Below, in pieces: positions 9,476 to 43,662 of a stretch of 64,000 nucleotides of DNA (positions are counted from its first letter, which is position 1; each line of letters opens with the position of its first letter). Below the pieces are notes generated by a model. That model was not told the origin of the DNA, did no database searches, and saw only the letters and a list, made by a program, of their open reading frames with translations. This DNA comes from Candidatus Gottesmanbacteria bacterium (GTDB lineage Bacteria; Patescibacteriota; Microgenomatia; 2-02-FULL-39-11): contig JACPKY010000001.1 in NCBI GenBank assembly GCA_016186795.1, positions 65,357 to 129,356 of the forward strand. The letters run 5' to 3'. The translations under genes were made by a program, and so were the position numbers.

Positions 9476-9549
9476 GCCTCCTTAGCTCAGTGGCAGAGCG
9501 ACGGTTTTGTAAACCGCTGATGACAGTTCGATTCTGTCAGGAGGCTCCA
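9476..9549 (+). tRNA. tRNA-Thr (anticodon UGU), CCA encoded
   Basis: Manual cloverleaf: acceptor GCCTCCT/AGGAGGC, D-arm GCTC-AGTGGCA-GAGC, anticodon stem ACGGT/ACCGC with loop TTTGTAA (anticodon TGT), T-arm GACAG-TTCGATT-CTGTC, discriminator T followed by CCA. Confidence 0.8.
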
Positions 9550-10053
9550 GCTGAGGTGGCGGAGTGGACAACTAAATTTTTTGATTTAGAATACATACAT
9601 CATGTAGCCACATTGATAAAAAAACTTTTTGGTATTGATTCAAAGATAGCAACATCGAACAGTGGGTATTACGTGGTATATTTTGGCTCAACGGAGACGG
9701 TACGATGGTTACTTGGAATGGGACTGGTCTTCAATAAGGTTAAGAGCCAAGTCAATGCACCGGATTGGATACTTTCTCAGAAAGAGTATATGAAATTTTT
9801 CTTAAAGGGATTTTTTGATACTGATGGCTCAGTATATAAATTACGATTTGGTATCCAATTGTCCTTTACGAACAGATCAATACCCTTATTGAATTCGTTG
9901 CGACGTTGTCTTTTCGTACTTGGTTTCAAACCATCAATTATCAGCTGTTACCATATATACTTGACAAGACGTGATGATGTGAGTAAGTTTTTCCGAGAAG
10001 TTGGTCCTGCAAACAAGAAACATAGAGAAAGATTTCGACTATTCCATATGTGA
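9490..10053 (+). CDS. LAGLIDADG homing-endonuclease-like ORF (possibly N-terminally degenerate; true start probably downstream of the tRNA overlap)
   Basis: Contains ...SQKEYMKFFLKGFFDTDGSVYKLRF..., a classic LAGLIDADG block (hydrophobic-K/A-G-F-x-D-x-D-G-S). Only one clear motif is present, at about residue 112. The annotated ATG lies inside tRNA-Thr, so the N-terminus is uncertain. It is intergenic between two tRNAs. Confidence 0.5.
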   Translation: MAERRFCKPLMTVRFCQEAPAEVAEWTTKFFDLEYIHHVATLIKKLFGIDSKIATSNSGYYVVYFGSTETVRWLLGMGLVFNKVKSQVNAPDWILSQKEYMKFFLKGFFDTDGSVYKLRFGIQLSFTNRSIPLLNSLRRCLFVLGFKPSIISCYHIYLTRRDDVSKFFREVGPANKKHRERFRLFHM

Positions 10054-10066
10054 GATGCCCTTATTA

Positions 10067-10149
10067 GCCAGGATGGCTGAGTGGACTAAAGCACGAGACT
10101 GTAAATCTCGCGCCGTAAGGCTTCCTAGGTTCGAATCCTAGTCCTGGCA
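10067..10149 (+). tRNA. tRNA-Tyr (anticodon GUA), long variable arm, no encoded CCA
   Basis: Acceptor GCCAGGA/TCCTGGC, anticodon stem CGAGA/TCTCG with loop CTGTAAA (anticodon GTA), long variable arm CGCCGTAAGGCTTC, T-arm CTAGG-TTCGAAT-CCTAG, discriminator A. Confidence 0.8.
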
Positions 10150-10185
10150 CTGAAGAGGATTTTGGCCCATGTCAGTTTAGACATG

Positions 10186-10722
10186 TCACTTTAGGATAGT
10201 GATATTTGGTTGGCCAATCGGCAGATCTGATTTGGCCGGATCCCAAAGTAAGTAAACTTTCCCATACGTCTCATTTAACATTTCCACCACTTTGGCTGCT
10301 TCCGTTTCTGATAAATCAGGAAGTTTCGCATTGATTTTGGGAATCTCCTCTCTATGATAATGCCACAACTTTTGTTCGCCAGCGGTTAATCCTTTCCACG
10401 TATTTGTATCGACCACCGTCTCTACTCCTACAAGTCTTGCGTCTTTATCATCTGAATCGTACAGCTGACACTCAAACATACCGCCTTTGACCTGTTTACA
10501 GAAGTGATGTGCTATTTTTTTCTCATCAGCTGGGAAATGTTTCTCTGCATCAATATGAAGAGTAAATCCTTGGTATGGTTTATTTTCTACCTGAGTCATG
10601 GGAGAAGGCTGTGGTGTTTGTGTTGTTGTAGGGCTAACAGTTGCACCGCCTCTTACTACATATCCTAAAACTGCGCCAACGATCAGTACTACTCCTAGCA
10701 TCATCCATTTATTTTGTTCCAT
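10186..10722 (-). CDS. Hypothetical membrane-anchored protein (about 179 aa from the internal start)
   Basis: Best start is MEQNKWMMLGVVLIVGAVLG (TM helix), preceded by an AAGGAAGGGGGTGAG RBS on the minus strand. The longer ORF to 10860 lacks an RBS. Thr/Pro linker, then a His-rich soluble domain (HHFC...WHYH). Confidence 0.45.
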   Translation of the reverse strand: MEQNKWMMLGVVLIVGAVLGYVVRGGATVSPTTTQTPQPSPMTQVENKPYQGFTLHIDAEKHFPADEKKIAHHFCKQVKGGMFECQLYDSDDKDARLVGVETVVDTNTWKGLTAGEQKLWHYHREEIPKINAKLPDLSETEAAKVVEMLNETYGKVYLLWDPAKSDLPIGQPNITILK

Positions 10723-10810
10723 GTTTTTGGAACTCACCCCCTTCCTTTGTGATATACGCCACAACAAGTTTTTACTATAAAACTTTACCTTTTGCAATCT
10801 GGTATAATAA

Positions 10811-11023
10811 TTGTGTATGAAAAACGTCATTTCGATGCCGAAAGTATTCCAAGACCCCAAGTATCGGGGAAAACATATTATTCTCGCAGCTGGAAAAGTA
10901 TATACGGCTACTACTGGTGAGCAAGCGGCAAAAATTTTGAAGCGTCTGGAAAAAACACACCCCGAAGTAACCCCAGAAGTGGCCTATCTCCCCAAAGCTC
11001 GTTCCCTTATCTTATGGATGTAA
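10811..11023 (+). CDS. Small hypothetical protein (about 60-70 aa), conserved-looking partner of the downstream aspartic protease
   Basis: MPKVFQDPKYRGKHIILAAGKVYTATTGEQAAKILKRLEKTHPEVTPEVAYLP. Overlaps the start of the retropepsin-like gene by 10 nt, which suggests translational coupling. Confidence 0.45.
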   Translation: MCMKNVISMPKVFQDPKYRGKHIILAAGKVYTATTGEQAAKILKRLEKTHPEVTPEVAYLPKARSLILWM

Positions 11024-11424
11024 AATTTTCCTTCGAAGATGGAGGAAAAACTGCTCTTGGTCACATTTATCGACCCATTGCCAAAGTCACTTTTCATTCA
11101 CCAAAAGTAGAAAAAGCCGTTGATGTTTGGATGGTGGTTGATACTGGAGCAGACTATACTATACTTCCCCGTCATATTAGTAAAAAACTGCGTATTTCTT
11201 TTAAATCTGACTGTATCAAAGATAAAACCTTTGGTGTGGGAGGAAATCAAACAATTTATTTTTATAAATCGAAACTGAAAGCGACCATCGGATCAATTGA
11301 AAGAAAAATTCCGATTGCTTTTTTTGATAACAATGAAATTCCTCCTCTGTTAGGACGCCTCGGATTTTTGGAATCATTTGATACGGAGTTTCTAAAAACC
11401 CATATTGTAATCTTCAAAGACTAA
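11014..11424 (+). CDS. Retropepsin-like (clan AA) aspartic protease, 136 aa
   Basis: VWMVVDTGADYTILP contains the D-T-G-A active-site signature of single-domain retroviral-type aspartyl proteases. Size fits a homodimeric bacterial retropepsin-like protein. Confidence 0.6.
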   Translation: MDVKFSFEDGGKTALGHIYRPIAKVTFHSPKVEKAVDVWMVVDTGADYTILPRHISKKLRISFKSDCIKDKTFGVGGNQTIYFYKSKLKATIGSIERKIPIAFFDNNEIPPLLGRLGFLESFDTEFLKTHIVIFKD

Positions 11425-11425
11425 A

Positions 11426-12385
11426 ATGAAGATCATCGTAAGTTTGGGAATAATTCTAGTTGTAATACTTTTTGTAGTAAGCCTCTATTTCCTAGCTCCG
11501 ACAGGTTTTTCCGATGAAAAAATTCGTATCGTTCGCCCGCTCGATTTTCCTGCCGATACCATTTTTTCACAATTGGAAGATCAGAATCTTATCCGGTCGA
11601 AAACACTTCTTTCACTTCTCCTTTTCGTACTAAAACCCGGAGGAACTATTGAACCAGGAGCCTATCAACTCTCACATCGCATGAATCTATTCCAAATCGC
11701 AGACACTCTCCTCAATCACCCGTATCAGAAATGGGTAACTCTTATACCCGGTCTCAGAAAAGAGCAGGTTGCAGAAAAATTGGCAGAAAAATTTTCATGG
11801 AAAGATTCGCAAACGAAAGAATTTCTTGAAATTGCGAAGGAAGGATACCTTTTCCCGGACACGTATTTACTAAACGTCGATTATTCTCCTGAGGAAATGT
11901 ACCAGCGGATACTTTCCAATTTCAACGAAAAATTTGATGCGCAAATGCAAAAGGATTTACTTTCCCAAAACATTCGAAATGATACGGCAATCAAAATTGC
12001 CTCCCTCATCGAACGAGAAGCAGGTGGAGAAGATGATAAAGCATTGATTGCCGGTATCATTTGGAACCGGCTGAATAAGAATATGAAGCTGCAAATAGAT
12101 GCGACGATTCAGTATGCTATGGGAAAAGGTCATGGCTTTCCTGCCGATAGTTGGTGGCCGGAAGTTTCCCATGATGATATTCTCACAAATGAATCACCAT
12201 ACAACACGTATAAATATGAAGGACTTCCCCCAGGACCAATTGCTAGCCCTTCGCTTTCTTCAATCAAATCCGTTGTCTATCCCCAAGAAACCGATTGCCT
12301 CTACTACCTCCATGATGCTAATAAACAAATCCACTGTGCCGAAACTTACGAAGAACATCTGGAGAATATCAAAAATTATTTGTAG
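11426..12385 (+). CDS. mltG: Endolytic murein transglycosylase MltG (YceG family)
   Basis: N-terminal TM (IIVSLGIILVVILFVVSLYF). YceG-like body with EAGGEDDKALIAGIIWNRL, LQIDATIQYA and YNTYKYEGLPPGPIASPS motifs typical of MltG. Confidence 0.85.
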   Translation: MKIIVSLGIILVVILFVVSLYFLAPTGFSDEKIRIVRPLDFPADTIFSQLEDQNLIRSKTLLSLLLFVLKPGGTIEPGAYQLSHRMNLFQIADTLLNHPYQKWVTLIPGLRKEQVAEKLAEKFSWKDSQTKEFLEIAKEGYLFPDTYLLNVDYSPEEMYQRILSNFNEKFDAQMQKDLLSQNIRNDTAIKIASLIEREAGGEDDKALIAGIIWNRLNKNMKLQIDATIQYAMGKGHGFPADSWWPEVSHDDILTNESPYNTYKYEGLPPGPIASPSLSSIKSVVYPQETDCLYYLHDANKQIHCAETYEEHLENIKNYL

Positions 12386-12870: not shown

Positions 12871-12952
12871 GCCGAGGTGGCTCAGTGGTAGAGCGAGTAC
12901 TTGGTAAGTACTAGGTCACGGGTCCAATTCCCGTCCTCGGCTCAGAAATTTT
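12871..12952 (+). tRNA. tRNA-Thr (anticodon GGU) with atypical T-loop (TCCAATT)
   Basis: Acceptor GCCGAGG/CCTCGGC, D-arm GCTC-AGTGGTA-GAGC, anticodon stem AGTAC/GTACT with loop TTGGTAA (anticodon GGT), T-stem ACGGG/CCCGT. Position 55 is C rather than U, which is unusual. Confidence 0.7.
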
Positions 12953-12992
12953 GTTGAGTCAGATAAACGGTCCCGACTCAGTCGGGATTGAC

Positions 12993-13030
12993 TGTGGGTT
13001 CGATTCCCACCTCAGGCTCACAACGCGACC
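12993..13030 (+). other. tRNA-like 3' fragment (canonical T-arm plus 3' acceptor strand plus CA) lacking a matching 5' acceptor strand
   Basis: GTGGG-TTCGATT-CCCAC, then CTCAGGC-T-CA, sits 40 nt after tRNA-Thr(GGU). No GCCTGAG 5' partner exists nearby. It could be a pseudo-tRNA or an integration-site remnant. Confidence 0.3.
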
Positions 13031-13060: not shown

Positions 13061-13318
13061 CTATTGATTGATAACGTAATAGTCAATGAGTCGGCGTATC
13101 ATTGCTTGATAAGATGCTTTGTGTTTTTTGGCAACGCTCTTAAAAAAATCTAGGCTTTTCGAAGTCAACGTCAATGTTACGCGCGTTTTTTTCTCCTTAA
13201 GAATAAGATCTTCAGGCTTAGGGAGAAAATCGCTTACCACTCGTGCTTCAATTGGTTCGTTATTGTACCTGATTTTGCTTTTCATAGATTTTTTTCCCCT
13301 TTCTCCAGTAACCGGCAC
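13061..13318 (-). CDS. brnA: BrnA-type antitoxin (CopG/RHH-like)
   Basis: MKSKIRYNNEPIEARVVSDFLPKPEDLILKEKKTRVTLTLTSKSLDFFKSVAKKHKASYQAMIRRLID matches BrnA family antitoxins. Overlaps the 3' end of the upstream BrnT gene. The true start is probably the internal MKSKIRY at 13285. Confidence 0.6.
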   Translation of the reverse strand: MPVTGERGKKSMKSKIRYNNEPIEARVVSDFLPKPEDLILKEKKTRVTLTLTSKSLDFFKSVAKKHKASYQAMIRRLIDYYVINQ

Positions 13319-13544
13319 CGATTATTCGAATACGGTTTGCCCGGTAGGTAAATCGGACAGTTAGTACACCTCCTTTCACTTTTCCAAAAACATAATATCT
13401 TTTTTCTTTTTTACTATGTGATGTATCTTCGGCAACAATACGCATTGGATCTATAAATGCATATTGAGCCGTCTCAAAATCTACTCCATGTTTTTCTACA
13501 TTTTCACTATTTTTCTTCTCATCCCACTCAAATGAAGTTTTCAT
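13260..13544 (-). CDS. brnT: BrnT-family toxin (DUF497 ribonuclease toxin)
   Basis: FEWDEKKNSENVEKHGVDFETAQYAFIDPMRIVAEDTSHSKKEKRYYVFGKVKGGVLTVRFTYRANRIRIIGAGYWRKGKKIYE follows the DUF497/BrnT consensus (F.WD..KN..N..KHGV.F.EA...F.DP; ...IRIISAR...E...YE). Confidence 0.7.
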   Translation of the reverse strand: MKTSFEWDEKKNSENVEKHGVDFETAQYAFIDPMRIVAEDTSHSKKEKRYYVFGKVKGGVLTVRFTYRANRIRIIGAGYWRKGKKIYEKQNQVQ

Positions 13545-13645
13545 ATAGGTATGACTATTTTTCATATATTTTAGCATATATTTATATGAAATATCAATCC
13601 ACAAAAAAGCACCAAAATAAGAAATCTGCTACAATAGTCTAGCTT

Positions 13646-14446
13646 ATGCAGTCTACAAAATCTCGCATCGATATCGCCCGTGAAGGGTTTATGAAGAAGG
13701 AGAAAGATCTTTCTCTTGCCGCACATACCAAAAAAACAATTCAAGCATCGATAAACCACAAAGAAGGCCACAAGACGAGCTTTAATCTTCCTGAGATTAT
13801 TTTAGGCGGACAAGATGGACTGGTGAATGTCTTGGGGGTGATACTCGGAGTTGCAGCAGCAACTGGAGATACCCGAATCGTTGTTATTGCCGGACTTGCG
13901 GCCACATTTGCTGAAAGTATTTCCATGGGAGCTGTTGCCTACACCGCAACTCTTGCTGAAGTCGACTATTACCACTCAGAGCATGAAAGAGAAAAATGGG
14001 AAATAGAACACTTTCCAAAAGGCGAAAAAGAAGAAGTACGAAGTCTCTATAAGCGATATGGATTCAAGGGAGATCTTTTAGAAAAAATTGTCGACACAAT
14101 TACGTCTGATAAAAAGGTCTGGTTGGAGGTTATGATGAATCAAGAACTCAAACTCGAACCTGTGGATCGAGGAAGCGCACTGCAAAAGGCGTTCATCGTG
14201 GGAATTTCTGCAGTCATCGGATCGTTCATCCCTCTTACCCCCTATTTTCTTTTTTCGGTAAAAGACGCAACAGTCGTCTCGCTTTTTTTCTCGGCTTTTG
14301 TCCTTTTTGCAATCGGATACTATAAAGCGCGGGTAACACTTGGAAGGAAACTCATAAGTCAAGGTCTGCAGATGATGGTCATTGGAATGGTATCGGCAAT
14401 CGTGGGATACTTTATCGGGACACTTTTTAAAATAACTGGGTTCTAA
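13646..14446 (+). CDS. VIT1/CCC1-family (vacuolar iron transporter-like) membrane protein
   Basis: GGQDGLVNVLGVILGVAAATGDTRIVVIAGLAATFAESISMGAVAYT is the hallmark N-terminal TM block of the VIT family (PF01988). A C-terminal second TM bundle is present. Confidence 0.6.
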   Translation: MQSTKSRIDIAREGFMKKEKDLSLAAHTKKTIQASINHKEGHKTSFNLPEIILGGQDGLVNVLGVILGVAAATGDTRIVVIAGLAATFAESISMGAVAYTATLAEVDYYHSEHEREKWEIEHFPKGEKEEVRSLYKRYGFKGDLLEKIVDTITSDKKVWLEVMMNQELKLEPVDRGSALQKAFIVGISAVIGSFIPLTPYFLFSVKDATVVSLFFSAFVLFAIGYYKARVTLGRKLISQGLQMMVIGMVSAIVGYFIGTLFKITGF

Positions 14447-15250: not shown

Positions 15251-16045
15251 ATGCTGATGAAGCTCCACGGGCTTACGCCCGTGGTATCTTCAAATTCTTC
15301 GGCGAGCGGAATCCGCCGAAGCATAAAAACCTCGCTATCGTTATTGCAAATGGTTGTACTCCCCTGTAAAATTAATCAACTCATGTATCAATTCATCTTC
15401 CTAAAAAGTGCCATTTCTCACACTACAACGACCGAACTCGTATTGGCACTTGTTCAGAAAATCTCGGAACCGGGCCTCACAGTTCAAATACTCAAGCTCC
15501 CATATACTTCAAAGGTACCTGTCAAAGCCAACTACCTGAAAGAGCTGTACCTTTCACCGGATCTTTTCTCTTCTCTCCCCATAGAAAAATTGACAGCTGA
15601 GGAAATCCAGTCTGACGAATTCATTATCCATTTCCCATTCAAAGGCCAATCTCTTGACCCTCTCGATAACCGTTTTGGAGACCTCTTTGGAACTCTTGTA
15701 CGAGTCAACCACATGCTCTTTCCCCTTCCCCACACCGACCTTATAACACTAAACACCTCCGTCGACAGCCTGAGTGTAAGCCGATTTGCAACAGACTCAT
15801 CAACCCCCCAGAAACTCTATACCACCGAGCCTTTTTATCAATCTCTGGACCCAAACACCAACCCCGCATCTATCCAATGCCAAGTTAGAGACCCGAAAAC
15901 GGGGAGGCAATATTCTCGTGAAATTCAACTCAGTAACACAGGATTATCTTTTGACCTAGATCTTTCCGACCCTCTCAGAGAGGAACCAATAAGAGAAAAA
16001 TTTGCCCAATCAGGGCTTGCACTCGTATCATCACTCCTATGTTAA
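15251..16045 (+). CDS. Hypothetical protein (264 aa)
   Basis: Long ORF tightly packed with its neighbours (16-nt gap upstream, 7-nt overlap downstream). No recognisable motif. Confidence 0.4.
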   Translation: MLMKLHGLTPVVSSNSSASGIRRSIKTSLSLLQMVVLPCKINQLMYQFIFLKSAISHTTTTELVLALVQKISEPGLTVQILKLPYTSKVPVKANYLKELYLSPDLFSSLPIEKLTAEEIQSDEFIIHFPFKGQSLDPLDNRFGDLFGTLVRVNHMLFPLPHTDLITLNTSVDSLSVSRFATDSSTPQKLYTTEPFYQSLDPNTNPASIQCQVRDPKTGRQYSREIQLSNTGLSFDLDLSDPLREEPIREKFAQSGLALVSSLLC

Positions 16046-16338
16046 AGAAAAAGTCCCTCATACGAGAAATTCTTGTTGCAGATTGTCCTGTCTGCAAAGA
16101 AGATTTTTCCCTGGACTGCACCAACACCGCACCGTCACGGGGTGACTACGGTCTTTTCTTCCTTTATCCCCCTCTCAACAAAAGAACTCCCAGTGAAAAA
16201 TTTGCAGAACTAAACGAGCAATTACGAACAGAGTCTCCTTGCAAAGTAATCGAGGTCTGGGAAGAAAAACTCGAAGAGCACAGAAAAAACTGTCAAGGGC
16301 AGATCACAATTCAAGGACTCGAAACGAAGCCAAGCTGA
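16039..16338 (+). CDS. Hypothetical small protein with CxxC pair (99 aa)
   Basis: CPVCKEDFSLDC near the N-terminus and a C-terminal CQGQ. Overlaps the upstream gene by 7 nt. Confidence 0.4.
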   Translation: MLKKKSLIREILVADCPVCKEDFSLDCTNTAPSRGDYGLFFLYPPLNKRTPSEKFAELNEQLRTESPCKVIEVWEEKLEEHRKNCQGQITIQGLETKPS

Positions 16339-16344
16339 ACTACT

Positions 16345-16602
16345 ATGTCATCAACGTATCTGGTCTTCACTTGTCATAAATGCCAAAAAAGCCTCCAACT
16401 ATACCAAAAGTCTGAAGTAGACGTAACCTTGGTCGGATCACTTCTGAAAGAAAAAAACCAAAAAACAATTCGAACCGTTGGGATACTTTTGGTATGTCAA
16501 CAAAACATCCGCCACTTTCATCACTGGCTTGACGAAATTGTCATGCACCGTGTCGCGTGTGACGGAAGCGTGGAATTCGGCGGCCAGGGATTCCTTGACT
16601 AG
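16345..16602 (+). CDS. Hypothetical small protein with CxxC (85 aa)
   Basis: FTCHKCQKSLQLY. Begins 7 nt after the previous gene. Last member of the four-gene block. Confidence 0.35.
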   Translation: MSSTYLVFTCHKCQKSLQLYQKSEVDVTLVGSLLKEKNQKTIRTVGILLVCQQNIRHFHHWLDEIVMHRVACDGSVEFGGQGFLD

Positions 16603-16629
16603 TTTCTCGTATCGATCACCATTTTACGT

Positions 16630-18816: not shown

Positions 18817-18818
18817 AT

Positions 18819-27423: not shown

Positions 27424-27429
27424 CTTCGT

Positions 27430-31155: not shown

Positions 31156-31156
31156 T

Positions 31157-32570: not shown

Positions 32571-32598
32571 ATCTATCGTTTATTGTATAGGGGGAGTA

Positions 32599-37480: not shown

Positions 37481-37509
37481 TTGACAATTCCTACCAACAA
37501 TCATATACT
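37481..37509 (+). promoter_or_regulatory. Sigma70-like promoter for the vapB-like/PIN cassette
   Basis: TTGACA, a 17-nt spacer, then TATACT, starting immediately after the duplicated rplA terminus. Confidence 0.45.
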
Positions 37510-37531
37510 GAGTATGAATTCATTTCATACT

Positions 37532-37759
37532 ATGGATACTCAACGCATCACCATCAGTCTTCCTGGATACATCTATAAACGTCTCAGAAAGACAATACCG
37601 TCTCGTGGTATAAGCCAATTTGTGGCAAAAACCGTGGAAAAAGAACTTATGGATATGAAAGCAGAAGACCCTATCCAAGGATTTTTTGAACTTCAGAATC
37701 ATTTTCCAAAACTGACCACAAAACAAATTCTCAACGCAATCAGAAAAGGAAGAACGTGA
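37532..37759 (+). CDS. RHH (CopG/Arc-like) antitoxin
   Basis: MDTQRITISLPGYIYKRLRKTIPSRGISQFVAKTVEKEL is the ribbon-helix-helix N-terminal beta-strand plus helices. Its stop overlaps the start of the PIN gene by 4 nt. Confidence 0.5.
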   Translation: MDTQRITISLPGYIYKRLRKTIPSRGISQFVAKTVEKELMDMKAEDPIQGFFELQNHFPKLTTKQILNAIRKGRT

Positions 37760-38169
37760 AGATTTTTATTGTGGATGCTTCTATACTGCTCCGAACTCTC
37801 TCAAATAAAGGTGGTACCGCTGACATTTTCCTTCGGAAACTTCTTGCAGACCAAAAAAGCAATTCTACTCATCTCTATTCCACTTCATTTCTGATGATAG
37901 AAGTTGCAAATGGATTACGTTTCTCTCTTGGCGATGAAAAATTTGCTAGAGATTCCCTAAGACGGCTTTCAATTCTGCCAATTCGGTATATCGAAATAAC
38001 CAGTTCTTATCTCGAAGAAGCGCTACGGTGGTCCTATACGTACAAAACAACCGTCTACGACAGTATCTATCATGTCGTAGCAAAAATGCTTGATGGGACG
38101 TTTCTGACATGCGATGACGAGTATTACCAGAAAGCAAAATCAGTCGGGAATATCAAGCTTCTCAGTTAA
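37756..38169 (+). CDS. vapC: PIN-domain toxin (VapC-like), second copy
   Basis: MKIFIVDASILL (first conserved Asp), ...FLMIEVANGL..., ...IYHVVAKMLDGTFLTCDDEYY (conserved C-terminal Asp). Confidence 0.7.
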   Translation: MKIFIVDASILLRTLSNKGGTADIFLRKLLADQKSNSTHLYSTSFLMIEVANGLRFSLGDEKFARDSLRRLSILPIRYIEITSSYLEEALRWSYTYKTTVYDSIYHVVAKMLDGTFLTCDDEYYQKAKSVGNIKLLS

Positions 38170-38798: not shown

Positions 38799-39175
38799 CC
38801 GTCGCCCGGCGCGATTCCAATTGCCACAAAACCCGCCCGTTTGTATTCAATCTCAGTATAATTGCAAGGTAGGAGATACAGAAATCTCAAGTATCATCAT
38901 AATCATCTGTATCTCCTGTCTGAAGGGAGGTTTTATTTTTTTTTGCGGTATGCAGTTTTTTCCGGTTTTATTGGGGTTGATTTTTGAAGGATCAAAGCAA
39001 TTGATCCCTCTTGCAATAACCCCAATAAGACTTAGAGCCTGTTTGAGAAGTCCCTTTCGTTACGAAAGGTTGCAGGTTCAAGCGAAAACAGCGCATCATG
39101 ACGAAGGAGTATACGAAGGTATACTTCTAGGAATGATAAGCTGTTTGCAGCTGAATCCTGCAATCTTGCAGTAGA

Positions 39176-40126
39176 ATGCGACTTTTCAAACAGGCTCTTA
39201 AATCAAAAATCCCCTTAATTCCTTTTGCGGAATCTGAGGGGATTTTTGCTGTTGATTTCATTGGTTTGAACCTCTACAATGCGCCCATGCCAGCCGAAAG
39301 ACTTGCTGCTTTACCTATTGATGAAATTCTAGAGTACGAACAGATACGTCGAGATGCCCTCCAATCTCGACTTCTTGCTGTATATCGCTGGATTCCTGAT
39401 GTACTTGGACATGATATGCGATTTCCTGTAGGTTATTTTGCCGATATCGGAGGATACGATCTTTTCCAAACTGGGACTATCGCACAATTTGCCCACCATA
39501 TTACAGAAATTGATATTGATAAAGATATCATGGAGAAAGGCAAAAGTCGTCCTGAAGTCCAGGAGCTTATTAAAGCTGGAAGTGTAGATTTTGTTGTCCA
39601 TGATGCTCAGAATTTACCCATGATCCCTTCCCGCTCACAAGATATTACTGCACTTGTAGAAGTTTTGGGTGCAGGGCTTGAGGGCCCTGAAGAATTTCAA
39701 ACTGTCTATAACGTTATTCACGAAGCTCAAAGGATAACCGCTCCTCATGGCGCCTTGGTATTAACTGCCAAAAATGCTGTCCTTGCGCTTCATCTAGCCG
39801 GACTTGGAGTCCATATGGAAAAAGGTATCCCGGTTCATATAGAACAGCTGGAGTTTTTAAACCAGATGTTTGGAAAAGTAACAGTATATGGACAAATAAA
39901 TTATTTCAATGCATATGATGATGGAAGAGATAGATTATGGCTAAGACCTCCTCCGGGAACAGCCGCTTATGATTCCAAAGGTCGTAGATATATGAGATAC
40001 ACAGATGATGACCTTATTCCCCGTCTTTACCTTCCTGAGGCTGATGTAACTCCTGCATTTATGGTATTAGTCTGTCAATACCCTATAGATTTGGAAGAAC
40101 GGCATATAGGTATTGACAACACGTAG
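39176..40126 (+). CDS. Hypothetical protein, possible class I SAM-dependent methyltransferase fold
   Basis: YFADIGGYDLF (motif I-like hhDhGxG), ITEIDIDKD (acidic end of beta2), DFVVHDAQNLP (motif II-like). Ends 4 nt before the IS1595 transposase gene. GC-rich. Confidence 0.35.
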   Translation: MRLFKQALKSKIPLIPFAESEGIFAVDFIGLNLYNAPMPAERLAALPIDEILEYEQIRRDALQSRLLAVYRWIPDVLGHDMRFPVGYFADIGGYDLFQTGTIAQFAHHITEIDIDKDIMEKGKSRPEVQELIKAGSVDFVVHDAQNLPMIPSRSQDITALVEVLGAGLEGPEEFQTVYNVIHEAQRITAPHGALVLTAKNAVLALHLAGLGVHMEKGIPVHIEQLEFLNQMFGKVTVYGQINYFNAYDDGRDRLWLRPPPGTAAYDSKGRRYMRYTDDDLIPRLYLPEADVTPAFMVLVCQYPIDLEERHIGIDNT

Positions 40127-40150
40127 TAGATGTGTTATACTGAGGCTAAC

Positions 40151-41041
40151 ATGAAACAGTTTAGCCTCAAAACATTTTTGCGAAAATATCCTAATGACGA
40201 AGCGTGCCTAGAGGAGATTAAGAATACCCGTTGGCCTCAAGGTATTACTTGCCCCAAATGCCAAAAAATCACCAAATTCTATAAAATAACAGACCGCACA
40301 GCTTACTCTTGTGAGTTCTGTAGGACGCAGGTATTCCCATTAGCAGGTACTATCTTTGAGAAAAGCACAGTATCCCTTAGATTATGGTTTTATGCCATGT
40401 TTTTGATGATTAAGACACGGTCTGGTATATCTGCAAAACAACTAGAGAGAGAATTAGGAGTTTGTTACAAAACCGCCCACCGCATATTTAAGCAAATCCG
40501 TATGCTTATGGACGAAGGAAACGGAGATAAATTGACAGGAAATGTAGAAGTAGATGAAACATTTATCGGCGGAAGGGGTGTGAATAGAAGATATAAGCCT
40601 AATTTTAGTGAGATACCAAAAGAAGTAGTTATGGGTATGATACAAAGAAACGGAAAAGCATATTTAAGACATATACCAAACACAGGTAAATGGACACTTC
40701 TAAAACAGATAAGAGATAATGTTGATGTAAAAGCACGAGTTATTACAGACCAATGGTTAGCTTATGGTAGTTTACCCAAATATGGATATAAACACGATTT
40801 TGTAAATCATCAGGAAACCTATGTAAAAGGCGATATTCATACACAAAACGCAGAGATGATGTGGAGTATCTTAAAAAGAGATATTTACGGAGTTTATCGC
40901 CATGTATCGGCTCAATATTTACAAAATTATGCCAACGAATATGCCTGGCGATACAACCATAGAAACAGTGAAGATATGTTTACTGATTTACTCAAGCAGA
41001 TTGCTTTGGTGAAGGTCGTGAAGGCGAAACAGCTCGTCTGA
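40151..41041 (+). CDS. IS1595-family (ISXO2-like) transposase
   Basis: N-terminal transposase zinc-ribbon (CPKCQKITKFYKITDRTAYSCEFCRTQ), then the DDE_Tnp_IS1595 core (VEVDETFIGG..., ...ITDQWLAYGSL..., ...HQETYVKGDIHTQNAE...). Confidence 0.8.
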   Translation: MKQFSLKTFLRKYPNDEACLEEIKNTRWPQGITCPKCQKITKFYKITDRTAYSCEFCRTQVFPLAGTIFEKSTVSLRLWFYAMFLMIKTRSGISAKQLERELGVCYKTAHRIFKQIRMLMDEGNGDKLTGNVEVDETFIGGRGVNRRYKPNFSEIPKEVVMGMIQRNGKAYLRHIPNTGKWTLLKQIRDNVDVKARVITDQWLAYGSLPKYGYKHDFVNHQETYVKGDIHTQNAEMMWSILKRDIYGVYRHVSAQYLQNYANEYAWRYNHRNSEDMFTDLLKQIALVKVVKAKQLV

Positions 41042-41122: not shown

Positions 41123-41356
41123 TTATTTACATTCCTTAATCCATTCTTCTTCAGGAATACCTGTTCTTTTCACCATTTCTTTTACGTTTTTCCAATGAAT
41201 AGTTTTATAATTAAAGATTACTTGAACACTTTTAGTTATACCATTTTCGTTTTTTATATATGTTTCGTGTGTTCCTTCTCTATTTATAAATTCCCACCCT
41301 CTATTAATTAGAAACCTAGCCGCTTTTTCTGGTCTTAGATTGTTAACCTTTGTCAT
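41123..41356 (-). CDS. hicA: HicA-family mRNA-interferase toxin
   Basis: LRPEKAARFLINRGWEFINREGTHETYIKNENGITKSVQVIFNYKTIHWKNVKEMVKRTGIPEEEW follows the HicA/YcfA pattern (L.K.GW....GSH..Y.....G......P.H....I..G.L..IL...GI). Confidence 0.7.
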   Translation of the reverse strand: MTKVNNLRPEKAARFLINRGWEFINREGTHETYIKNENGITKSVQVIFNYKTIHWKNVKEMVKRTGIPEEEWIKECK

Positions 41357-41733
41357 TATTGGAATGCAATTCGTTGTCCTTCATAGGGAAGATTTATGAG
41401 AGTAAAATAAGAGGGTTTTTTATTTTTGGCGATAGGGTTCTTTTTGTTAAAAGACCTATTAATTAATTCACTCGCATATTCAATTTCTTTTAACTTGTCT
41501 AAGAATCTTTTTTCTGGAATTTGATTTAAATAGTCTTCAGAAAGCTTTTTTTTCCTGACTGTTTTTAAATACGACAAAGATGCCTCTTCAATACTTTGTT
41601 TGAGCTTTTTAGGATCAGAGTCATATTCTACTAAATTTAAATTCAAACAAACTGCAACATAATCTTCATCTTCCTTATACATTATGTAAGTAAAAAATCC
41701 TTTATCTTTAGTATTTAAGTAAGTTTTAAGCAT
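41356..41733 (-). CDS. hicB: HicB-like antitoxin (UPF0150 fold)
   Basis: FTYIMYKEDEDYVAVCLNLNLVEYDSDPKKLKQSIEEASLSYLKT resembles the HicB N-terminal RNase-H-like fold (Y.a...kE.dgy.a.cPeL.v...g.T.eEA..nl.EA). Its stop overlaps the hicA start. Confidence 0.55.
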   Translation of the reverse strand: MLKTYLNTKDKGFFTYIMYKEDEDYVAVCLNLNLVEYDSDPKKLKQSIEEASLSYLKTVRKKKLSEDYLNQIPEKRFLDKLKEIEYASELINRSFNKKNPIAKNKKPSYFTLINLPYEGQRIAFQ

Positions 41734-42046: not shown

Positions 42047-42081
42047 AGAAAAAACCTCGCATTCGCTTGCGGGGTTTTTTT
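42047..42081. terminator. Bidirectional rho-independent terminator-like hairpin
   Basis: aaaaaacctcgcattcgcttgcggggttttttt: GC-rich stem CCTCGCA/TGCGGGG flanked by an A-run and a T-run. Confidence 0.4.
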
Positions 42082-42590
42082 GTACGTTGATAAGTGTTCA
42101 CATGCAGCACTTCCTTCCTGTTTCTTGATTGAAGGTATGAAACACCTGAAGCTTGGTAATGTAGAAAAGGGGAAAGTTAACTTGGCTGTCTATCAAGGCA
42201 GGTTCCAAATATTATTTTGCAAATATCTAAAACTCCTGATTCCGCTGGTACAAGCTGGCTTACAGAAGGCCAATAAACCAGCGGAACCAAGAGTCTTAGT
42301 TCTGTAATTTGCTTGTTTTTTAAAGTGCTATTTTTCTAGAATCATTTTATCAAAAAAGCAGATGCAGTCAAGTAGTTCTGTGATATTTCTTCATAAATAG
42401 AAAAATGAGGCTAGATAAAAGTACTTTTCATTTACGTGTTCTCCCTACATATGTGCCGGAAGAACCTATTGCTAAAGTTGAACCCTTATGATATAAATAC
42501 CTTTATCCAAAGACAGTAGGCAACCATAAGACCTACCGAGGAAAAATTAGTATCTAGTATTTGGTATCAAGTATTTAGAAGATTAATTTA

Positions 42591-42613
42591 CCTCGGAAAT
42601 CCGAGGTTTTTTG
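42591..42613 (+). terminator. Hairpin plus T-run immediately upstream of rplJ (leader attenuator or terminator)
   Basis: cctcggaaatccgaggttttttg: stem CCTCGG/CCGAGG, loop AAAT, then T6. It ends 20 nt before the rplJ start. Confidence 0.4.
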
Positions 42614-42632
42614 TTATTTGTTTTCTGAAACT

Positions 42633-43181
42633 ATGCCATCACAGAAAAATAAAGACTTAGTATTAGTTTTAAAAGAAAAGCTCTCCAAAGCGTCAACTCT
42701 TTTCCTTACTGACTACCGGGGACTTACTCATCAGCAATTGGAACAACTTAGAAAGTCACTAAAAAAAGTCAAGGCGGAATATATCGTTGCTAAAAATACT
42801 CTTTTGAAAATTGCTTTGAAAGAGGATAAGCGCAAAGGTTTGGATGAAGAATCACGAACAAAACTAGAAGAAAAGCTTCAGGAACCAACTGCAACGCTTC
42901 TTTCATACGGTGACGAAATGGAAGCGATTAAAACCCTTGATACATTCATAAAATCAGCCCAAATTCCCAAAATAAAAATAGGATTTTTTGCCGGAAAAAT
43001 CGCTACAGAAATGGACTTTAAATCCCTTGCAAATCTCCCAAGCCGAGATGTACTTCTGGCAACTCTTGTTTCTCGCCTACAATCCCCTCTTTATGGGCTT
43101 CATCATGCCATGAGATGGAATCTGAGTAAATTGGTATATGCGTTAGATGCTGTTGCCAAGAAAAGGGCCATAAATTCGTAA
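42633..43181 (+). CDS. rplJ: 50S ribosomal protein L10
   Basis: MPSQKNKDLVLVLKEKLSKASTLFLTDYRGLTHQQLEQLRKSLKKVKAEYIVAKNTLLKIAL is the L10 N-terminal domain. The ORF extends 5 codons upstream, but MPSQ is the likely start. Confidence 0.85.
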   Translation: MPSQKNKDLVLVLKEKLSKASTLFLTDYRGLTHQQLEQLRKSLKKVKAEYIVAKNTLLKIALKEDKRKGLDEESRTKLEEKLQEPTATLLSYGDEMEAIKTLDTFIKSAQIPKIKIGFFAGKIATEMDFKSLANLPSRDVLLATLVSRLQSPLYGLHHAMRWNLSKLVYALDAVAKKRAINS

Positions 43182-43209
43182 TTTTCAAAGTAGAAAAAGG
43201 AGGTGATTT

Positions 43210-43611
43210 TTGATGGCAAAACATACAAAAGATGAACTATTAAAAGCTGTTGAGGAAATGACAGTCTTGGAACTAGCTGATTTTGTGAAATCGCTTGAGG
43301 AGAAATTCGGCGTTACAGCAGCAGCTCCTGTTGCAGTTGCCGCGTCTCCACAAGCAGGTGGTCCGCCAACTGGCGGAGGTGAAGCAGCTCCTGAACAAAC
43401 CTCATTTAATGTTGTTTTGGCAAATGCCGGAGCCAATAAAATCTCCGTCATTAAAGCAGTTCGGGAACTAGTTCCCACACTTGGCCTTCAGGAAGCAAAA
43501 ACACTCGTTGAATCTGCACCAAAGGAAGTTCTAACTGGTGTGAACAAAAAAACCGCAGAAGAAGTAAAGACAAAACTCACAGCAGCTGGTGCAACTGTTG
43601 AGTTGAAGTAA
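43210..43611 (+). CDS. rplL: 50S ribosomal protein L7/L12
   Basis: [34 protein letters not shown], then an Ala/Pro hinge, then [77 protein letters not shown] upstream. Confidence 0.9.
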
Positions 43612-43639
43612 TTCTCGACAGTTTGTATAATCGCGTATT

Positions 43640-43662
43640 CCCCTCTTATTAGAGGGGTTTTA
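43640..43662 (+). terminator. Rho-independent terminator after rplL
   Basis: cccctcttattagagggg followed by tttt: 7-bp GC-rich stem, TATT loop, then a T-run. Confidence 0.6.

What the first reader, a model, noticed from the sequence alone, without database searches (positions are those of the whole stretch)
9476..43662. Conserved tRNA-Thr/Tyr ... tRNA-Trp-rpmG-secE-nusG-rplKAJL locus expanded to about 34 kb by serial accessory insertions
In most bacteria tRNA-Thr, tRNA-Tyr, (tRNA-Gly), tRNA-Thr, tufB, tRNA-Trp, rpmG, secE, nusG, rplK, rplA, rplJ, rplL and rpoBC lie within a few kb (established knowledge). Here the same anchors occur in the same order and orientation but far apart: tRNA-Thr(UGU) 9476, tRNA-Tyr 10067, tRNA-Thr(GGU) 12871, rpmG 14498, tRNA-Trp 18301, secE 34392, nusG, rplK, rplA, rplJ 42633, rplL. 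Every gap holds accessory cargo, namely TA modules, secreted or surface protein genes, an IS, GC-rich islands and an excisionase. rpoB does not follow rplL. This looks like a housekeeping operon acting as an integration hotspot.
Basis: partly seen in the sequence, partly recalled or inferred. Interest (0 to 1): 0.7.

Follow-up and report, generated by a model that had tools for sequence, protein, structure and literature searches.

The report
Ribosomal gene cluster split by insertions
In this tiny-genome Gottesmanbacteria (CPR) bacterium, the normally compact tRNA / secE-nusG / ribosomal-protein gene cluster is stretched from about 5 kb to 34 kb because accessory genes (toxin-antitoxin pairs, a transposase, a homing endonuclease, orphan genes) and some relocated housekeeping genes sit between its operons; the same junctions are variable across the whole lineage, so it is a real but fairly ordinary gene-turnover hotspot.

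Summary
They span 34.2 kb, against about 5.2 kb in outgroup bacteria. The organism is a Candidatus Gottesmanbacteria bacterium (CPR).

In 80 related species, secE-nusG, rplK-rplA and rplJ-rplL are never split. The junctions nusG|rplK, rplA|rplJ and rplL|next gene hold more than 300 bp of extra DNA in 78%, 70% and 65% of species, against 0-26% for other conserved adjacencies and 1 of 28 outgroups. The junction content is mostly species-specific.

The expansion is therefore lineage-wide turnover at operon boundaries, not a peculiarity of this genome. This genome's cargo is unusually rich in type II toxin-antitoxin modules (four firm, two weak), plus an IS1595 transposase and a LAGLIDADG ORF.

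- About 8 kb of the largest gap (25.3-33.5 kb) is a conserved block.
- Absence of rpoBC and tuf is ancestral to the clade.
- The 'excisionase' is a highly conserved BldC-like HTH gene.
- No integrase or att repeats exist.

Verdict: new member of a known kind (core-flanked gene-turnover hotspot). Moderate interest.

The parts
9476..9549 (+). tRNA-Thr(UGU), first anchor
   Evidence: ARAGORN; Rfam 66.3 bits
9557..10053 (+). LAGLIDADG homing-endonuclease-like ORF filling the tRNA-Thr/tRNA-Tyr spacer. Start uncertain: the ORF is open from 9490, inside the tRNA.
   Evidence: Pfam LAGLIDADG_3 1.4e-11, 44.9 bits; no homolog in 80 relatives
10067..10150 (+). tRNA-Tyr(GUA)
10186..12385 (.). Gap 2 content: DUF1264 (-, 10186-10860), aspartyl-protease-like (+, 11014-11424), YceG/MltG housekeeping gene (+, 11426-12385)
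   Evidence: Pfam (YceG 241 bits); none syntenic in relatives
12871..12943 (+). tRNA-Thr(GGU)
12966..13027 (+). tRNA-like 3' fragment (variable-arm-like hairpin, T-arm GTGGGTTCGATTCCCAC), not a callable tRNA; possible remnant
   Evidence: sequence; weak Rfam T-arm match 12994-13010; 13-mer shared with the tRNA-Trp T-arm
13061..13604 (-). BrnT/BrnA type II toxin-antitoxin module
   Evidence: BrnT 86.6 bits; BrnA weak, 20.4 bits; absent from relatives
13646..14446 (+). VIT1-family transporter
   Evidence: Pfam 204 bits
14498..15235 (+). rpmG (L33, 14498-14671) plus its conserved partner ORF o186 (14675-15235)
   Evidence: Pfam L33; L33-o186-tRNA-Trp block in 13-14 species
15251..18162 (+). Lineage-specific block between o186 and tRNA-Trp: three orphan ORFs plus a PhoD-like phosphatase (16630-18162)
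   Evidence: Pfam PhoD 90.7 bits. The L33-to-tRNA-Trp distance of 3629 bp is the largest of 19, the next being 1954 bp. No homologs in relatives.
18301..18374 (+). tRNA-Trp(CCA)
18379..19100 (-). VapBC-like TA (PIN toxin plus AbrB-type antitoxin), starting 4 nt after tRNA-Trp
   Evidence: Pfam PIN; NCBIfam AbrB domain
19253..25236 (.). Lineage-specific, partly GC-deviant stretch: EamA fragment (-), TrmB-like regulator, YafQ/RelB-like TA (21357-21907, -), GC-rich secreted orphan (22023-22880, -, GC3 0.63), orphans, multi-TM protein with YD/GxGD motifs (24391-25236, GC3 0.60)
   Evidence: Pfam; GC; translations; no homologs in relatives
25342..33480 (.). Clade-conserved block inside the tRNA-Trp-to-secE gap: DUF2000, DUF4389, o242, o413, o214, SNase, GDSL, Zn-ribbon, RNase HII (-), NTP-transferase (-)
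   Evidence: Syntenic homologs in L011/L174, L171, L173, L014, L021, L008, L015, L031; the NTP-transferase lies upstream of secE in 63 loci
33552..34079 (+). Orphan ORF (175 aa) between the NTP-transferase gene and secE
   Evidence: No Pfam/NCBIfam hit; absent from relatives
34305..35263 (+). secE (probable start 34392) and nusG, overlapping by 1 nt; a unit never split
   Evidence: Pfam; adjacent in 80/80 loci
35385..35943 (-). BrnT/CopG type II TA in the nusG|rplK junction
   Evidence: CopG_antitoxin 98 bits, BrnT 80.5 bits; same layout in Logan assemblies; only a CopG-like fragment in L007
36116..37412 (+). rplK-rplA unit. L1 is 290 aa with a roughly 92-aa charged N-terminal extension.
   Evidence: Pfam; translation; the pair is adjacent in 63/63 loci
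37481..38169 (+). VapBC-like TA (small antitoxin ORF plus PIN), followed by a terminator-like hairpin at 38227-38246
   Evidence: Pfam PIN
38964..39198 (.). Two very stable hairpins (69 nt and 165 nt) overlapping the doubtful ORF 38647-39174
   Evidence: MFE -120.8 kcal/mol, z = -13.0. Logan contigs from several runs end at about 39077 and resume at about 39171.
39176..41041 (+). SAM-methyltransferase-like gene (39176-40126) directly followed by an IS1595-family transposase (40130-41041)
   Evidence: DDE_Tnp_IS1595 120.7 bits plus Zn_ribbon_IS1595; only one genomic context found
41123..41733 (-). HicA-like two-gene cassette, 28% GC (foreign composition)
   Evidence: HicA_toxin weak, 19.2 bits; GC 0.275-0.291 against 0.416 for the window
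42489..42621 (+). L10 leader (autoregulatory RNA) retained directly upstream of rplJ
   Evidence: Rfam RF00557 50.8 bits; same arrangement in L011 after a 4.3-kb gap
42618..43611 (+). rplJ-rplL unit, with a terminator-like hairpin at 43640-43657
   Evidence: Pfam; adjacent in 43/43 loci; terminator
43675..44370 (+). Orphan 231-aa ORF in the variable rplL|HTH slot
   Evidence: No family hit; no homolog in relatives; this slot holds more than 300 bp in 15/23 species
44559..45634 (.). Conserved right flank: BldC/excisionase-family HTH (44559-44765, +) and GalT/HIT-like gene (44762-45634, -). rpoB is absent.
   Evidence: NCBIfam; Pfam; HTH found in 35 and GalT in 30 species loci; no RpoB/RpoC motifs

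Best explanation
The locus is the conserved translation-gene supercluster (tRNA-Thr, tRNA-Tyr, tRNA-Thr, rpmG, tRNA-Trp ... secE-nusG, rplKA, rplJL) of a Candidatus Gottesmanbacteria (CPR) bacterium. In this lineage the supercluster has come apart into self-contained units: single tRNAs, rpmG-o186, secE-nusG, rplK-rplA, and L10 leader-rplJ-rplL. The boundaries between units act as permissive, fast-turnover slots where genes are gained and lost. The tightly coupled pairs are never interrupted. In this genome the slots hold type II toxin-antitoxin cassettes, an IS1595 transposase, a LAGLIDADG ORF, GC-deviant secreted or membrane orphans and a few relocated housekeeping genes. An 8-kb block in the largest gap is older and shared with related species. 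Shown: anchor identities, unit integrity, junction-restricted variability across 80 species, species-specific cargo, and compositional foreignness of some cargo. Inferred: each unit is transcribed from its own signals (only the L10 leader and an rplL terminator are seen); cargo arrives by non-site-specific routes (transposition, illegitimate or flank-homology recombination); TA addiction slows its loss.
For: Anchors are verified. The organism comes from a 100% NusG match named Candidatus Gottesmanbacteria. Across 80 species-representative loci, secE-nusG, rplK-rplA and rplJ-rplL are always adjacent, with maximum apparent gaps of 313, 519 and 163 bp including unaligned termini. The nusG|rplK gap exceeds 300 bp in 51/65 loci (median about 1.4 kb, maximum 8.5 kb). 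The rplA|rplJ gap exceeds 300 bp in 33/47 loci (median 0.9 kb, maximum 5.7 kb). rplL|HTH does so in 15/23 and tRNA-Trp|f9 in 11/11. Twelve other conserved adjacencies score 0-26%; the remaining distances tabulated (f20|f9, f9|NTP-transferase, NTP-transferase|secE) score 52-75% because they are themselves variable or span intervening genes. In outgroup bacteria nusG|rplK has a median of 66 bp and exceeds 300 bp in 1/28. rplJL moves as a unit: it is inverted in L037 and L083. About 165 of roughly 200 junction ORF families are singletons, and their Pfam content is heterogeneous: Ig-like surface protein, MFS, IS200, PIN, Fic, AbiEii, Phd, sigma factor. Junction content has a mean Jaccard similarity of at most 0.3 even for species pairs with at least 90% identical L1, and close pairs such as L017/L037/L027 or L065/L067 share nothing. 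None of the window's TA, IS or HE genes has a homolog in the 80 loci, apart from a CopG fragment in L007. The HicA-like cassette is 28% GC; orphans at 22-25 kb have GC3 0.50-0.63. The L10 leader sits directly before rplJ here and in L011 despite gaps of 5.2 and 4.3 kb. Within the window, all TA, IS and HE elements lie inside the 34-kb locus and none was noticed in the roughly 30 kb outside it; only three of those flanking ORFs were scanned against Pfam, the rest read from their N-termini only.
Against: Hotspot status is judged only against neighbouring junctions within 10 kb of nusG, not genome-wide; the rest of this genome was not available. TA modules are rare in the junctions of other species (2 PIN, 1 Fic, 1 AbiEii, 1 Phd among 209 ORFs), so TA richness may reflect a TA-rich sub-lineage rather than the locus. 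Relative L173 also carries several TA modules. In one large subclade the nusG|rplK slot holds the same two genes (f12, f25) in up to 19 species, which is stable inheritance rather than turnover. Shared cargo is always less conserved than the flanks, so no recent inter-species transfer is visible. Independent transcription of the units is inferred; no convincing promoter was found in the 172 bp upstream of rplK. tRNA-Trp-to-secE distances are censored at 10 kb in relatives.
Confidence: 0.7

Rival explanations
1. Classical site-specific integration: integrase-bearing islands (ICE, IME or prophage-like) inserted serially into the 3' ends of tRNA genes and ribosomal-protein genes, as in streptococci, and later decayed to leave only cargo.
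For: Several cargo blocks start right after the 3' ends of tRNA or r-protein genes. The PIN cassette begins 4 nt after tRNA-Trp; a tRNA-like 3' fragment lies next to the BrnTA cassette. In streptococci, ICEs integrate at the 3' ends of rplL, rpmG and tRNA genes (PMC4701971).
Against: No integrase, recombinase, conjugation or phage gene was found among the roughly 58 ORFs scanned. No repeat of 11 nt or more of any tRNA or gene 3' tail occurs in the following gap, and no long direct repeats flank the cargo. The cassettes are single small modules, not island-sized. The 'excisionase' is a conserved host gene.
Confidence: 0.1
2. Mostly ancestral layout: the spacing reflects old rearrangements that moved ordinary chromosomal genes between the anchors, later trimmed differently in each species. 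There is little recent insertion and no hotspot.
For: An 8-kb block (25.3-33.5 kb) and o186 are conserved in relatives. MltG, RNase HII and a nucleotidyl transferase are housekeeping-type genes. rpoBC and tuf are absent in all 80 relatives. f12 and f25 are stably inherited in one subclade. Shared cargo looks vertically inherited.
Against: Differential loss predicts families shared patchily among species, but most junction families are singletons. The closest species pairs differ completely. Cargo includes self-mobile or selfish genes (IS1595, IS200, LAGLIDADG, TA) and compositionally foreign genes.
Confidence: 0.15
3. Assembly or binning artefact: a chimeric MAG contig joins fragments of the cluster with unrelated DNA.
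For: The source is a metagenome-assembled genome. Logan contigs break reproducibly near 39077-39171.
Against: Independent assemblies from 5-6 runs reproduce GDSL to nusG-TA-rplKA-TA, and MTase-IS-HicA-like-rplJL-HTH-GalT. The one break coincides with a -120 kcal/mol hairpin region. Eighty other genomes show the same kind of layout.
Confidence: 0.02

Closest known systems
Canonical bacterial cluster thrU-tyrU-glyT-thrT-tufB / (tRNA-Trp-rpmG)-secE-nusG / rplKA / rplJL-rpoBC (E. coli and many other bacteria; established knowledge)
   Same: Same genes, order and orientation. The same operon boundaries (secE-nusG | rplKA | rplJL) are where the breaks fall. An L10 leader precedes rplJ. Outgroup loci fetched here show the compact form of about 5.2 kb followed by rpoBC.
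   Different: The span is 34 kb instead of about 5 kb. There is no tRNA-Gly, no tuf and no rpoBC. rpmG precedes tRNA-Trp with a conserved extra ORF between them. Units are separated by 0.85-16 kb. These differences are shared across Gottesmanbacteria.
Core-gene-flanked hotspots of horizontal gene transfer (Oliveira et al. 2017, Nat Commun 8:841, PMC5635113)
   Same: Accessory genes concentrate in a few intervals between conserved core genes. Turnover is rapid. Many such hotspots lack integrases or recognisable mobile elements, and 29% contain tRNA or tmRNA genes. Defence-type or selfish genes are present.
   Different: That definition rests on within-clade pangenomes and a genome-wide null model. 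Here the comparison is between species, around one locus only, in an uncultured CPR lineage with genomes of about 1 Mb.
Streptococcal ICE/IME integration at the 3' ends of rplL, rpmG, rpsI and tRNA genes (Ambroset et al. 2016, PMC4701971)
   Same: Foreign DNA lies immediately downstream of the same kinds of conserved translation genes.
   Different: Those elements carry tyrosine or serine integrases and are bounded by 12-54-bp direct repeats of the target 3' end. Here neither an integrase nor such repeats are found.
Chromosomal type II toxin-antitoxin modules (BrnTA, VapBC, RelBE/YafQ, HicAB) as selfish, horizontally mobile two-gene cassettes (established knowledge)
   Same: Small two-gene cassettes with toxin domains BrnT (two copies), PIN (two copies), and YafQ-like and HicA-like (both weak). 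Their GC is low and they are species-specific.
   Different: Four firm and two weak such cassettes within 34 kb of a translation-gene cluster in a CPR genome. Activity is untested; two of the six rest on sub-threshold hits.

Membership tests
Conserved tRNA / rpmG / secE-nusG / rplKAJL supercluster | Presence of the anchor genes with correct identities | tested here: met
   ARAGORN and Rfam for four tRNAs; Pfam for L33, SecE, NusG, L11, L1, L10, L12
Conserved tRNA / rpmG / secE-nusG / rplKAJL supercluster | Canonical order and common orientation | tested here: met
   All on the + strand, in the same order as in outgroup loci L124, L132, L149 and L168
Conserved tRNA / rpmG / secE-nusG / rplKAJL supercluster | Compactness (a few kb in total, short intergenic spacers) | tested here: not met
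   34.2 kb against about 5.2 kb. nusG|rplK is 852 bp against an outgroup median of 66 bp; rplA|rplJ is 5205 bp against 220 bp
Conserved tRNA / rpmG / secE-nusG / rplKAJL supercluster | rpoB-rpoC downstream of rplL; tuf upstream of rpmG | tested here: not met
   No RpoB, RpoC or EF-Tu motifs in the window or in any of the 80 Gottesmanbacteria loci. Positive controls were found in outgroup loci.
Conserved tRNA / rpmG / secE-nusG / rplKAJL supercluster | L10 leader RNA upstream of rplJ | tested here: met
   RF00557 at 42489-42621, 50.8 bits, above the gathering score of 44
Core-flanked HGT / gene-turnover hotspot (sensu Oliveira et al. 2017) | Interval bounded by conserved core genes | tested here: met
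   nusG/rplK, rplA/rplJ and rplL/HTH-GalT flanks are present in 45-80 of the 80 species loci
Core-flanked HGT / gene-turnover hotspot (sensu Oliveira et al. 2017) | High diversity and turnover of interval content among related genomes | tested here: met
   Singleton families dominate. Mean Jaccard similarity is at most 0.3 at 90% or more L1 identity. The comparison is between species, not within a species.
Core-flanked HGT / gene-turnover hotspot (sensu Oliveira et al. 2017) | Excess of accessory genes relative to a genome-wide null model | tested here: inconclusive
   Only local controls were possible: 65-100% occupancy at these junctions against 0-26% at twelve other adjacencies within 10 kb. 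Whole genomes were not available.
Site-specifically integrated island (ICE / IME / genomic island) | Integrase or recombinase gene | tested here: not met
   None found among the ORFs scanned with Pfam and NCBIfam
Site-specifically integrated island (ICE / IME / genomic island) | Direct repeats duplicating the 3' end of the target tRNA or gene | tested here: not met
   No exact repeat of 11 nt or more of any anchor tail in the following gap; no tRNA 3' repeats. Only an orphan tRNA-like fragment at 12966-13027.
Type II toxin-antitoxin modules | Two small adjacent, overlapping or tightly spaced genes, one with a toxin domain | tested here: met
   BrnT 86.6 and 80.5 bits; PIN 33.2 and 37.9 bits; CopG antitoxin 98 bits; AbrB antitoxin. 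YafQ (21.8 bits) and HicA (19.2 bits) are below the Pfam cut-offs and therefore tentative.
Type II toxin-antitoxin modules | Toxicity neutralised by the cognate antitoxin | not testable with these tools
   Requires expression experiments
IS1595-family insertion sequence | DDE_Tnp_IS1595 transposase with N-terminal zinc ribbon | tested here: met
   120.7 and 50.3 bits
IS1595-family insertion sequence | Terminal inverted repeats, target-site duplication, multiple copies | tested here: inconclusive
   The only candidate is a 26-nt, 81% inverted repeat at 40100-40125 / 42433-42458, no better than chance pairs. A single genomic context was found in 4 assemblies.

The most novel reading that the evidence does not exclude
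In Gottesmanbacteria, and perhaps other CPR bacteria with genomes of about 1 Mb, the operon boundaries of the most conserved gene cluster in the genome serve as the preferred, integrase-independent landing pads for new genes. The near-invariant flanks (nusG, rplK, rplA, rplJ, rplL, and the 94-98% identical HTH gene) would act as homology arms for recombination of DNA taken up from relatives. Toxin-antitoxin cassettes would then lock the acquisitions in. This would make a specific locus a readable record of gene flow in uncultured episymbionts.
Probability: 0.2. Interest if true: 0.6.

Novelty: new member of a known kind. Interest (0 to 1): 0.35.

Why it matters
CPR bacteria have small, streamlined genomes, and little is known about where and how they take up accessory genes. 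This locus shows that even their most conserved gene cluster tolerates, at exactly its operon boundaries, kilobases of fast-changing cargo. The pattern holds across 80 species.

Practical uses:
- The nusG|rplK and rplA|rplJ junctions are easy-to-find sites for strain-specific genes (defence, TA, surface proteins) in CPR metagenomes.
- Assuming ribosomal-protein synteny when binning or scaffolding needs caution in this lineage.
- The pattern independently confirms which gene pairs must stay coupled: secE-nusG, rplKA, and leader-rplJL.

It does not reveal a new kind of element or mechanism.

Tried and rejected
- **att-type repeats.** I searched for repeats of tRNA 3' ends and of the last 60 nt of rpmG, o186, nusG, rplA and rplL in the following gaps. 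Nothing of 11 nt or more was found.
- **Long repeats flanking cargo.** A scan of 9-45 kb for long direct or inverted repeats gave only chance-level matches.
- **IS boundaries.** I tried to delimit the IS by inverted repeats and by finding other copies. The repeat at 40100/42433 is unconvincing and only one context exists.
- **Within-population polymorphism.** Look-ups of exact NusG, L11 and transposase proteins returned the same layout on every contig. The exact L33 is not on record.
- **Recent inter-species transfer.** I tested whether shared cargo is more similar than the flanks. It never is, except the HTH gene, which is simply ultra-conserved.
- **Orphan ORFs.** An NCBIfam scan of 20 ORFs without clear Pfam assignments named only two, the AbrB-type antitoxin and the BldC/excisionase-family HTH; the other 18 gave nothing.
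- **Metagenome scan with L33.** It returned mostly distant bacteria. These were useful as a compact-cluster baseline but gave no close relatives.
- **Walking upstream in the window's subclade.** Using o214 homologs, no tRNA-Trp lies within 10 kb upstream of o214. Whether tRNA-Trp is still linked to secE in those species remains unknown.
- **Literature.** No paper was found describing this locus structure in Gottesmanbacteria or CPR.
- **Initial guess.** From GC content and TA richness I first guessed a cyanobacterium (Microcystis). The NusG search rejected this.

Full report
**1. Observation**

ARAGORN and Rfam agree on four tRNA genes on the + strand:
- tRNA-Thr(UGU) 9476-9549
- tRNA-Tyr 10067-10150
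- tRNA-Thr(GGU) 12871-12943
- tRNA-Trp 18301-18374

Pfam confirms the protein anchors:
- L33 at 14498-14671
- NusG 34610-35263
- L11 36116-36538
- L1 36540-37412
- L10 42618-43181
- L12 43210-43611

Rfam also finds the L10 leader at 42489-42621, and a terminator-like hairpin follows rplL at 43640-43657.

The locus spans 34.2 kb. In outgroup loci recovered with an L33 profile, the same set from tRNA-Thr(UGU) to rplL occupies about 5.2 kb (L124, L149, L168). There tuf sits before rpmG and rpoB-rpoC follow rplL.

**2. Organism and reliability**

The NusG protein is 100% identical to an NCBI protein named Candidatus Gottesmanbacteria bacterium, and all near hits are Gottesmanbacteria or Patescibacteria. 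This is therefore a CPR bacterium. Relatives have chromosomes of about 1.0-1.2 Mb, judging from the contig lengths.

Independent Logan assemblies of several sequencing runs reproduce GDSL...secE-nusG-BrnT/CopG-rplK-rplA-PIN and MTase-IS1595-HicA-like-rplJ-rplL-orphan-HTH-GalT. The layout is not an assembly chimera.

**3. What fills the gaps**

- **Gap 1 (517 bp):** a LAGLIDADG ORF.
- **Gap 2 (2.7 kb):** DUF1264 (-), an aspartyl-protease-like gene and YceG/MltG.
- **Gap 3 (1.55 kb):** a tRNA-like 3' fragment, BrnT/BrnA (-) and a VIT1 transporter.
- **Gap 4 (3.6 kb):** a conserved partner ORF (o186), then three orphans and a PhoD-like phosphatase.
- **Gap 5 (15.9 kb):**
  - PIN/AbrB TA (-), starting 4 nt after tRNA-Trp
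  - an EamA fragment and a TrmB-like regulator
  - a YafQ/RelB-like TA (-)
  - GC-rich secreted and membrane orphans
  - the run DUF2000, DUF4389, o242, o413, o214, SNase, GDSL, Zn-ribbon, RNase HII (-), NTP-transferase (-)
  - an orphan ORF
- **nusG|rplK (852 bp):** BrnT/CopG (-).
- **rplA|rplJ (5.2 kb):**
  - a PIN TA
  - a roughly 1-kb stretch with two very stable hairpins
  - a methyltransferase-like gene
  - an IS1595 transposase
  - a HicA-like pair at 28% GC
  - a small ORF
  - the L10 leader
- **After rplL:** an orphan ORF, then a BldC/excisionase-family HTH gene and a GalT/HIT-like gene (-).

No integrase, recombinase, phage or conjugation gene was found.

From the coordinates the 34.2 kb divides roughly as follows:

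| Class | Share |
|---|---|
| Anchors | 11% |
| Genes syntenic in relatives | 25% |
| TA, IS and HE genes | 15% |
| Other genes with a family assignment but no synteny | 19% |
| Orphans | 17% |
| Intergenic | rest |

**4. Comparison with 80 related species**

A NusG profile scan of one genome per species returned 80 Gottesmanbacteria or Microgenomates loci with 10-kb flanks. I annotated them by tblastn with the window's proteins and by ARAGORN.

Three pairs are never separated. The gaps below are apparent gaps that include unaligned termini.

| Pair | Loci | Maximum apparent gap |
|---|---|---|
| secE-nusG | 80 | 313 bp |
| rplK-rplA | 63 | 519 bp |
| rplJ-rplL | 43 | 163 bp |

The junctions between units, in contrast, are usually occupied:

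| Junction | Loci with more than 300 bp | Median | Maximum |
|---|---|---|---|
| nusG\|rplK | 51/65 | about 1.4 kb | 8.5 kb |
| rplA\|rplJ | 33/47 | 0.9 kb | 5.7 kb |
| rplL\|HTH | 15/23 | - | - |
| tRNA-Trp\|next conserved gene | 11/11 | - | - |

- At least two species have no rplK within 10 kb of nusG.
- Twelve other conserved adjacencies in the same loci exceed 300 bp in only 0-26% of cases. The remaining distances score 52-75%, either because they span intervening genes (NTP-transferase|secE, f9|NTP-transferase) or because they are themselves variable (f20|f9).
- In outgroup bacteria nusG|rplK has a median of 66 bp and exceeds 300 bp in 1 of 28.
- The rplJL unit is found inverted as a unit in L037 and L083.
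- The breaks fall at the boundaries of the transcription and autoregulation units known from E. coli (secE-nusG, rplKA, rplJL; established knowledge).

**5. Turnover**

The 245 ORFs in the two main junctions fall into about 200 families, of which 165 are singletons.

A Pfam census of 209 of these ORFs is heterogeneous:
- an Ig-like surface protein family (16 members)
- an MFS transporter (7)
- IS200 transposases (3)
- PaaX and Trp-repressor-type regulators
- single PIN, Fic, AbiEii and Phd proteins, a sigma factor and methyltransferases

Junction content decays quickly with divergence. Mean Jaccard similarity is 0.3 (nusG|rplK) and 0 (rplA|rplJ) for species pairs with at least 90% identical L1. 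Close pairs such as L017/L037/L027 or L065/L067 share nothing.

Not all content is volatile. In one subclade the surface protein and MFS genes are inherited stably. Shared cargo is always more diverged than the flanks, so there is no sign of recent inter-species transfer.

None of the window's TA, IS or HE genes has a homolog in the 80 loci, except a CopG-like fragment just after nusG in L007.

**6. What is ancestral**

- The NTP-transferase gene lies upstream of secE in 63 loci.
- GDSL, Zn-ribbon, RNase HII, SNase, o214 and o413 are syntenic in the window's subclade.
- Walking upstream with o214 homologs shows that DUF2000-DUF4389-o242-o413-o214-SNase is conserved in L173, and o242 through NTP-transferase in L171 and L174. 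Different insertions lie inside the block in each species: an AbiEii TA in L173; a radical-SAM gene and a synthetase-like gene in L171; a 23S-IVP gene in L174.
- About 8 kb (25342-33480) of the largest gap is therefore old.
- No tRNA-Trp lies within 10 kb upstream of o214 in those relatives. A large or broken tRNA-Trp-to-secE distance is a subclade state, not peculiar to this genome.
- RpoB, RpoC and EF-Tu motifs are absent from the window and from all 80 loci, while positive controls work in outgroups.
- The 'excisionase' is a 68-aa BldC/excisionase-family HTH. It is present next to GalT in 35 species loci at 94-98% identity and is more conserved than NusG, L1 and L11 in 113 of 117 pairs. It is a host gene, not a mobile-element marker.

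**7. Mechanism**

Shown: unit integrity, junction-restricted variability, species-specific cargo, foreign composition of some cargo (HicA-like pair 28% GC; orphans with GC3 0.50-0.63 against a window GC of 41.6%), and retention of the L10 leader directly before rplJ here and in L011.

Not found: integrases, att repeats, target duplications or repeated flanking elements.

The best-supported reading has three parts:
- In this lineage the supercluster has relaxed into autonomous units.
- Only inter-unit boundaries tolerate insertions.
- Cargo arrives by non-site-specific routes (transposition, with IS1595 here and IS200 in relatives; homing; illegitimate or flank-homology recombination) and is lost slowly when it carries addiction modules.

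This matches the general description of core-flanked transfer hotspots, many of which lack integrases or mobile elements (PMC5635113). It differs from streptococcal ICE integration at rplL, rpmG and tRNA 3' ends, which needs integrases and leaves direct repeats (PMC4701971).

**8. Limits**

- Hotspot status is relative to neighbouring junctions only.
- Comparisons are between species.
- tRNA-Trp-to-secE distances are censored at 10 kb.
- Transcription is inferred.
- Two of the six TA calls are below Pfam cut-offs.
- Within the 64-kb window all TA, IS and HE elements lie in the locus. For eight elements this is roughly p = 0.007 under uniform placement, by my arithmetic. The rest of the genome was not available, and only three of the ORFs outside the locus were scanned against Pfam.

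**9. Verdict**

It needs correction on four points: the trait is lineage-wide, part of the gap content is ancestral, rpoBC loss is ancestral, and there is no site-specific integration and no excisionase.

This is a new, well-documented example of a known kind of genome feature in an under-studied phylum. Interest is moderate.

Noticed in passing
window 38964-39198: Two adjacent, extremely stable hairpins (69 nt and about 165 nt; MFE -120.8 kcal/mol, z = -13 against shuffles) lie just upstream of the methyltransferase and IS1595 genes. They overlap a doubtful 175-aa ORF. The 25-nt arms at 39034-39058 and 39174-39198 enclose 115 nt containing a weak promoter-like match. Logan contigs from several runs stop at about 39077 and restart at about 39171. 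No other copy was found, and no Rfam match. It could be a MITE-like palindrome, an invertible segment, or simply an assembly obstacle.
   Followed up: partly
window 9551-10053: A two-domain LAGLIDADG ORF exactly fills the spacer between tRNA-Thr(UGU) and tRNA-Tyr. Its first 23 nt (GCTGAGGTGGCGGAGTGGACAAC) resemble a class-II tRNA acceptor plus D-arm (16/23 identical to the 5' end of tRNA-Tyr). It is absent from all 80 relatives.
   Followed up: partly
window 12966-13027: An orphan tRNA-like 3' fragment (variable-arm-like hairpin, canonical T-arm, acceptor-like tail) lies 23 nt after tRNA-Thr(GGU) and next to the BrnTA cassette. It is not called by ARAGORN and has only a weak Rfam T-arm match. 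Its tail matches none of the four tRNAs in the window.
   Followed up: partly
window 36540-36815 (N-terminus of rplA); also the nusG N-terminus at 34610-34745: Ribosomal protein L1 carries a roughly 92-aa Lys/Glu-rich N-terminal extension. tblastn alignments cover residues 1-289 in about 50 Gottesmanbacteria species, so it is conserved there. It is missing in more distant Microgenomates, where alignments start near residue 94. NusG also has a roughly 45-aa Pro/Glu/Lys-rich N-terminal extension.
   Followed up: partly
window 44559-44765: A 68-aa BldC/excisionase-family HTH protein is 94-98% identical across species whose NusG, L1 and L11 are only 43-75% identical. It is the most conserved protein in the whole locus and always sits next to a GalT/HIT-like gene.
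   Followed up: partly
window 14675-15235: A membrane-anchored 186-aa ORF with no Pfam or NCBIfam family is conserved between rpmG and tRNA-Trp in 13-14 Gottesmanbacteria species at 24-34% identity. This suggests a lineage-specific gene co-transcribed with rpmG.
   Followed up: no
window 24391-25236: A GC3-rich (0.60) multi-pass membrane protein has YD and GxGD (LGAGD) motifs reminiscent of presenilin / signal-peptide-peptidase-type intramembrane proteases. It has no Pfam or NCBIfam hit, and the resemblance is from memory only.
   Followed up: no
L173 1-7213; L174 1929-3316: Relatives of the window's subclade also carry several TA modules in the region upstream of the conserved block: BrnT, PIN and AbiEii in L173, and two ParE/Phd pairs in L174. 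TA richness may therefore be a sub-lineage trait rather than specific to the ribosomal junctions.
   Followed up: no
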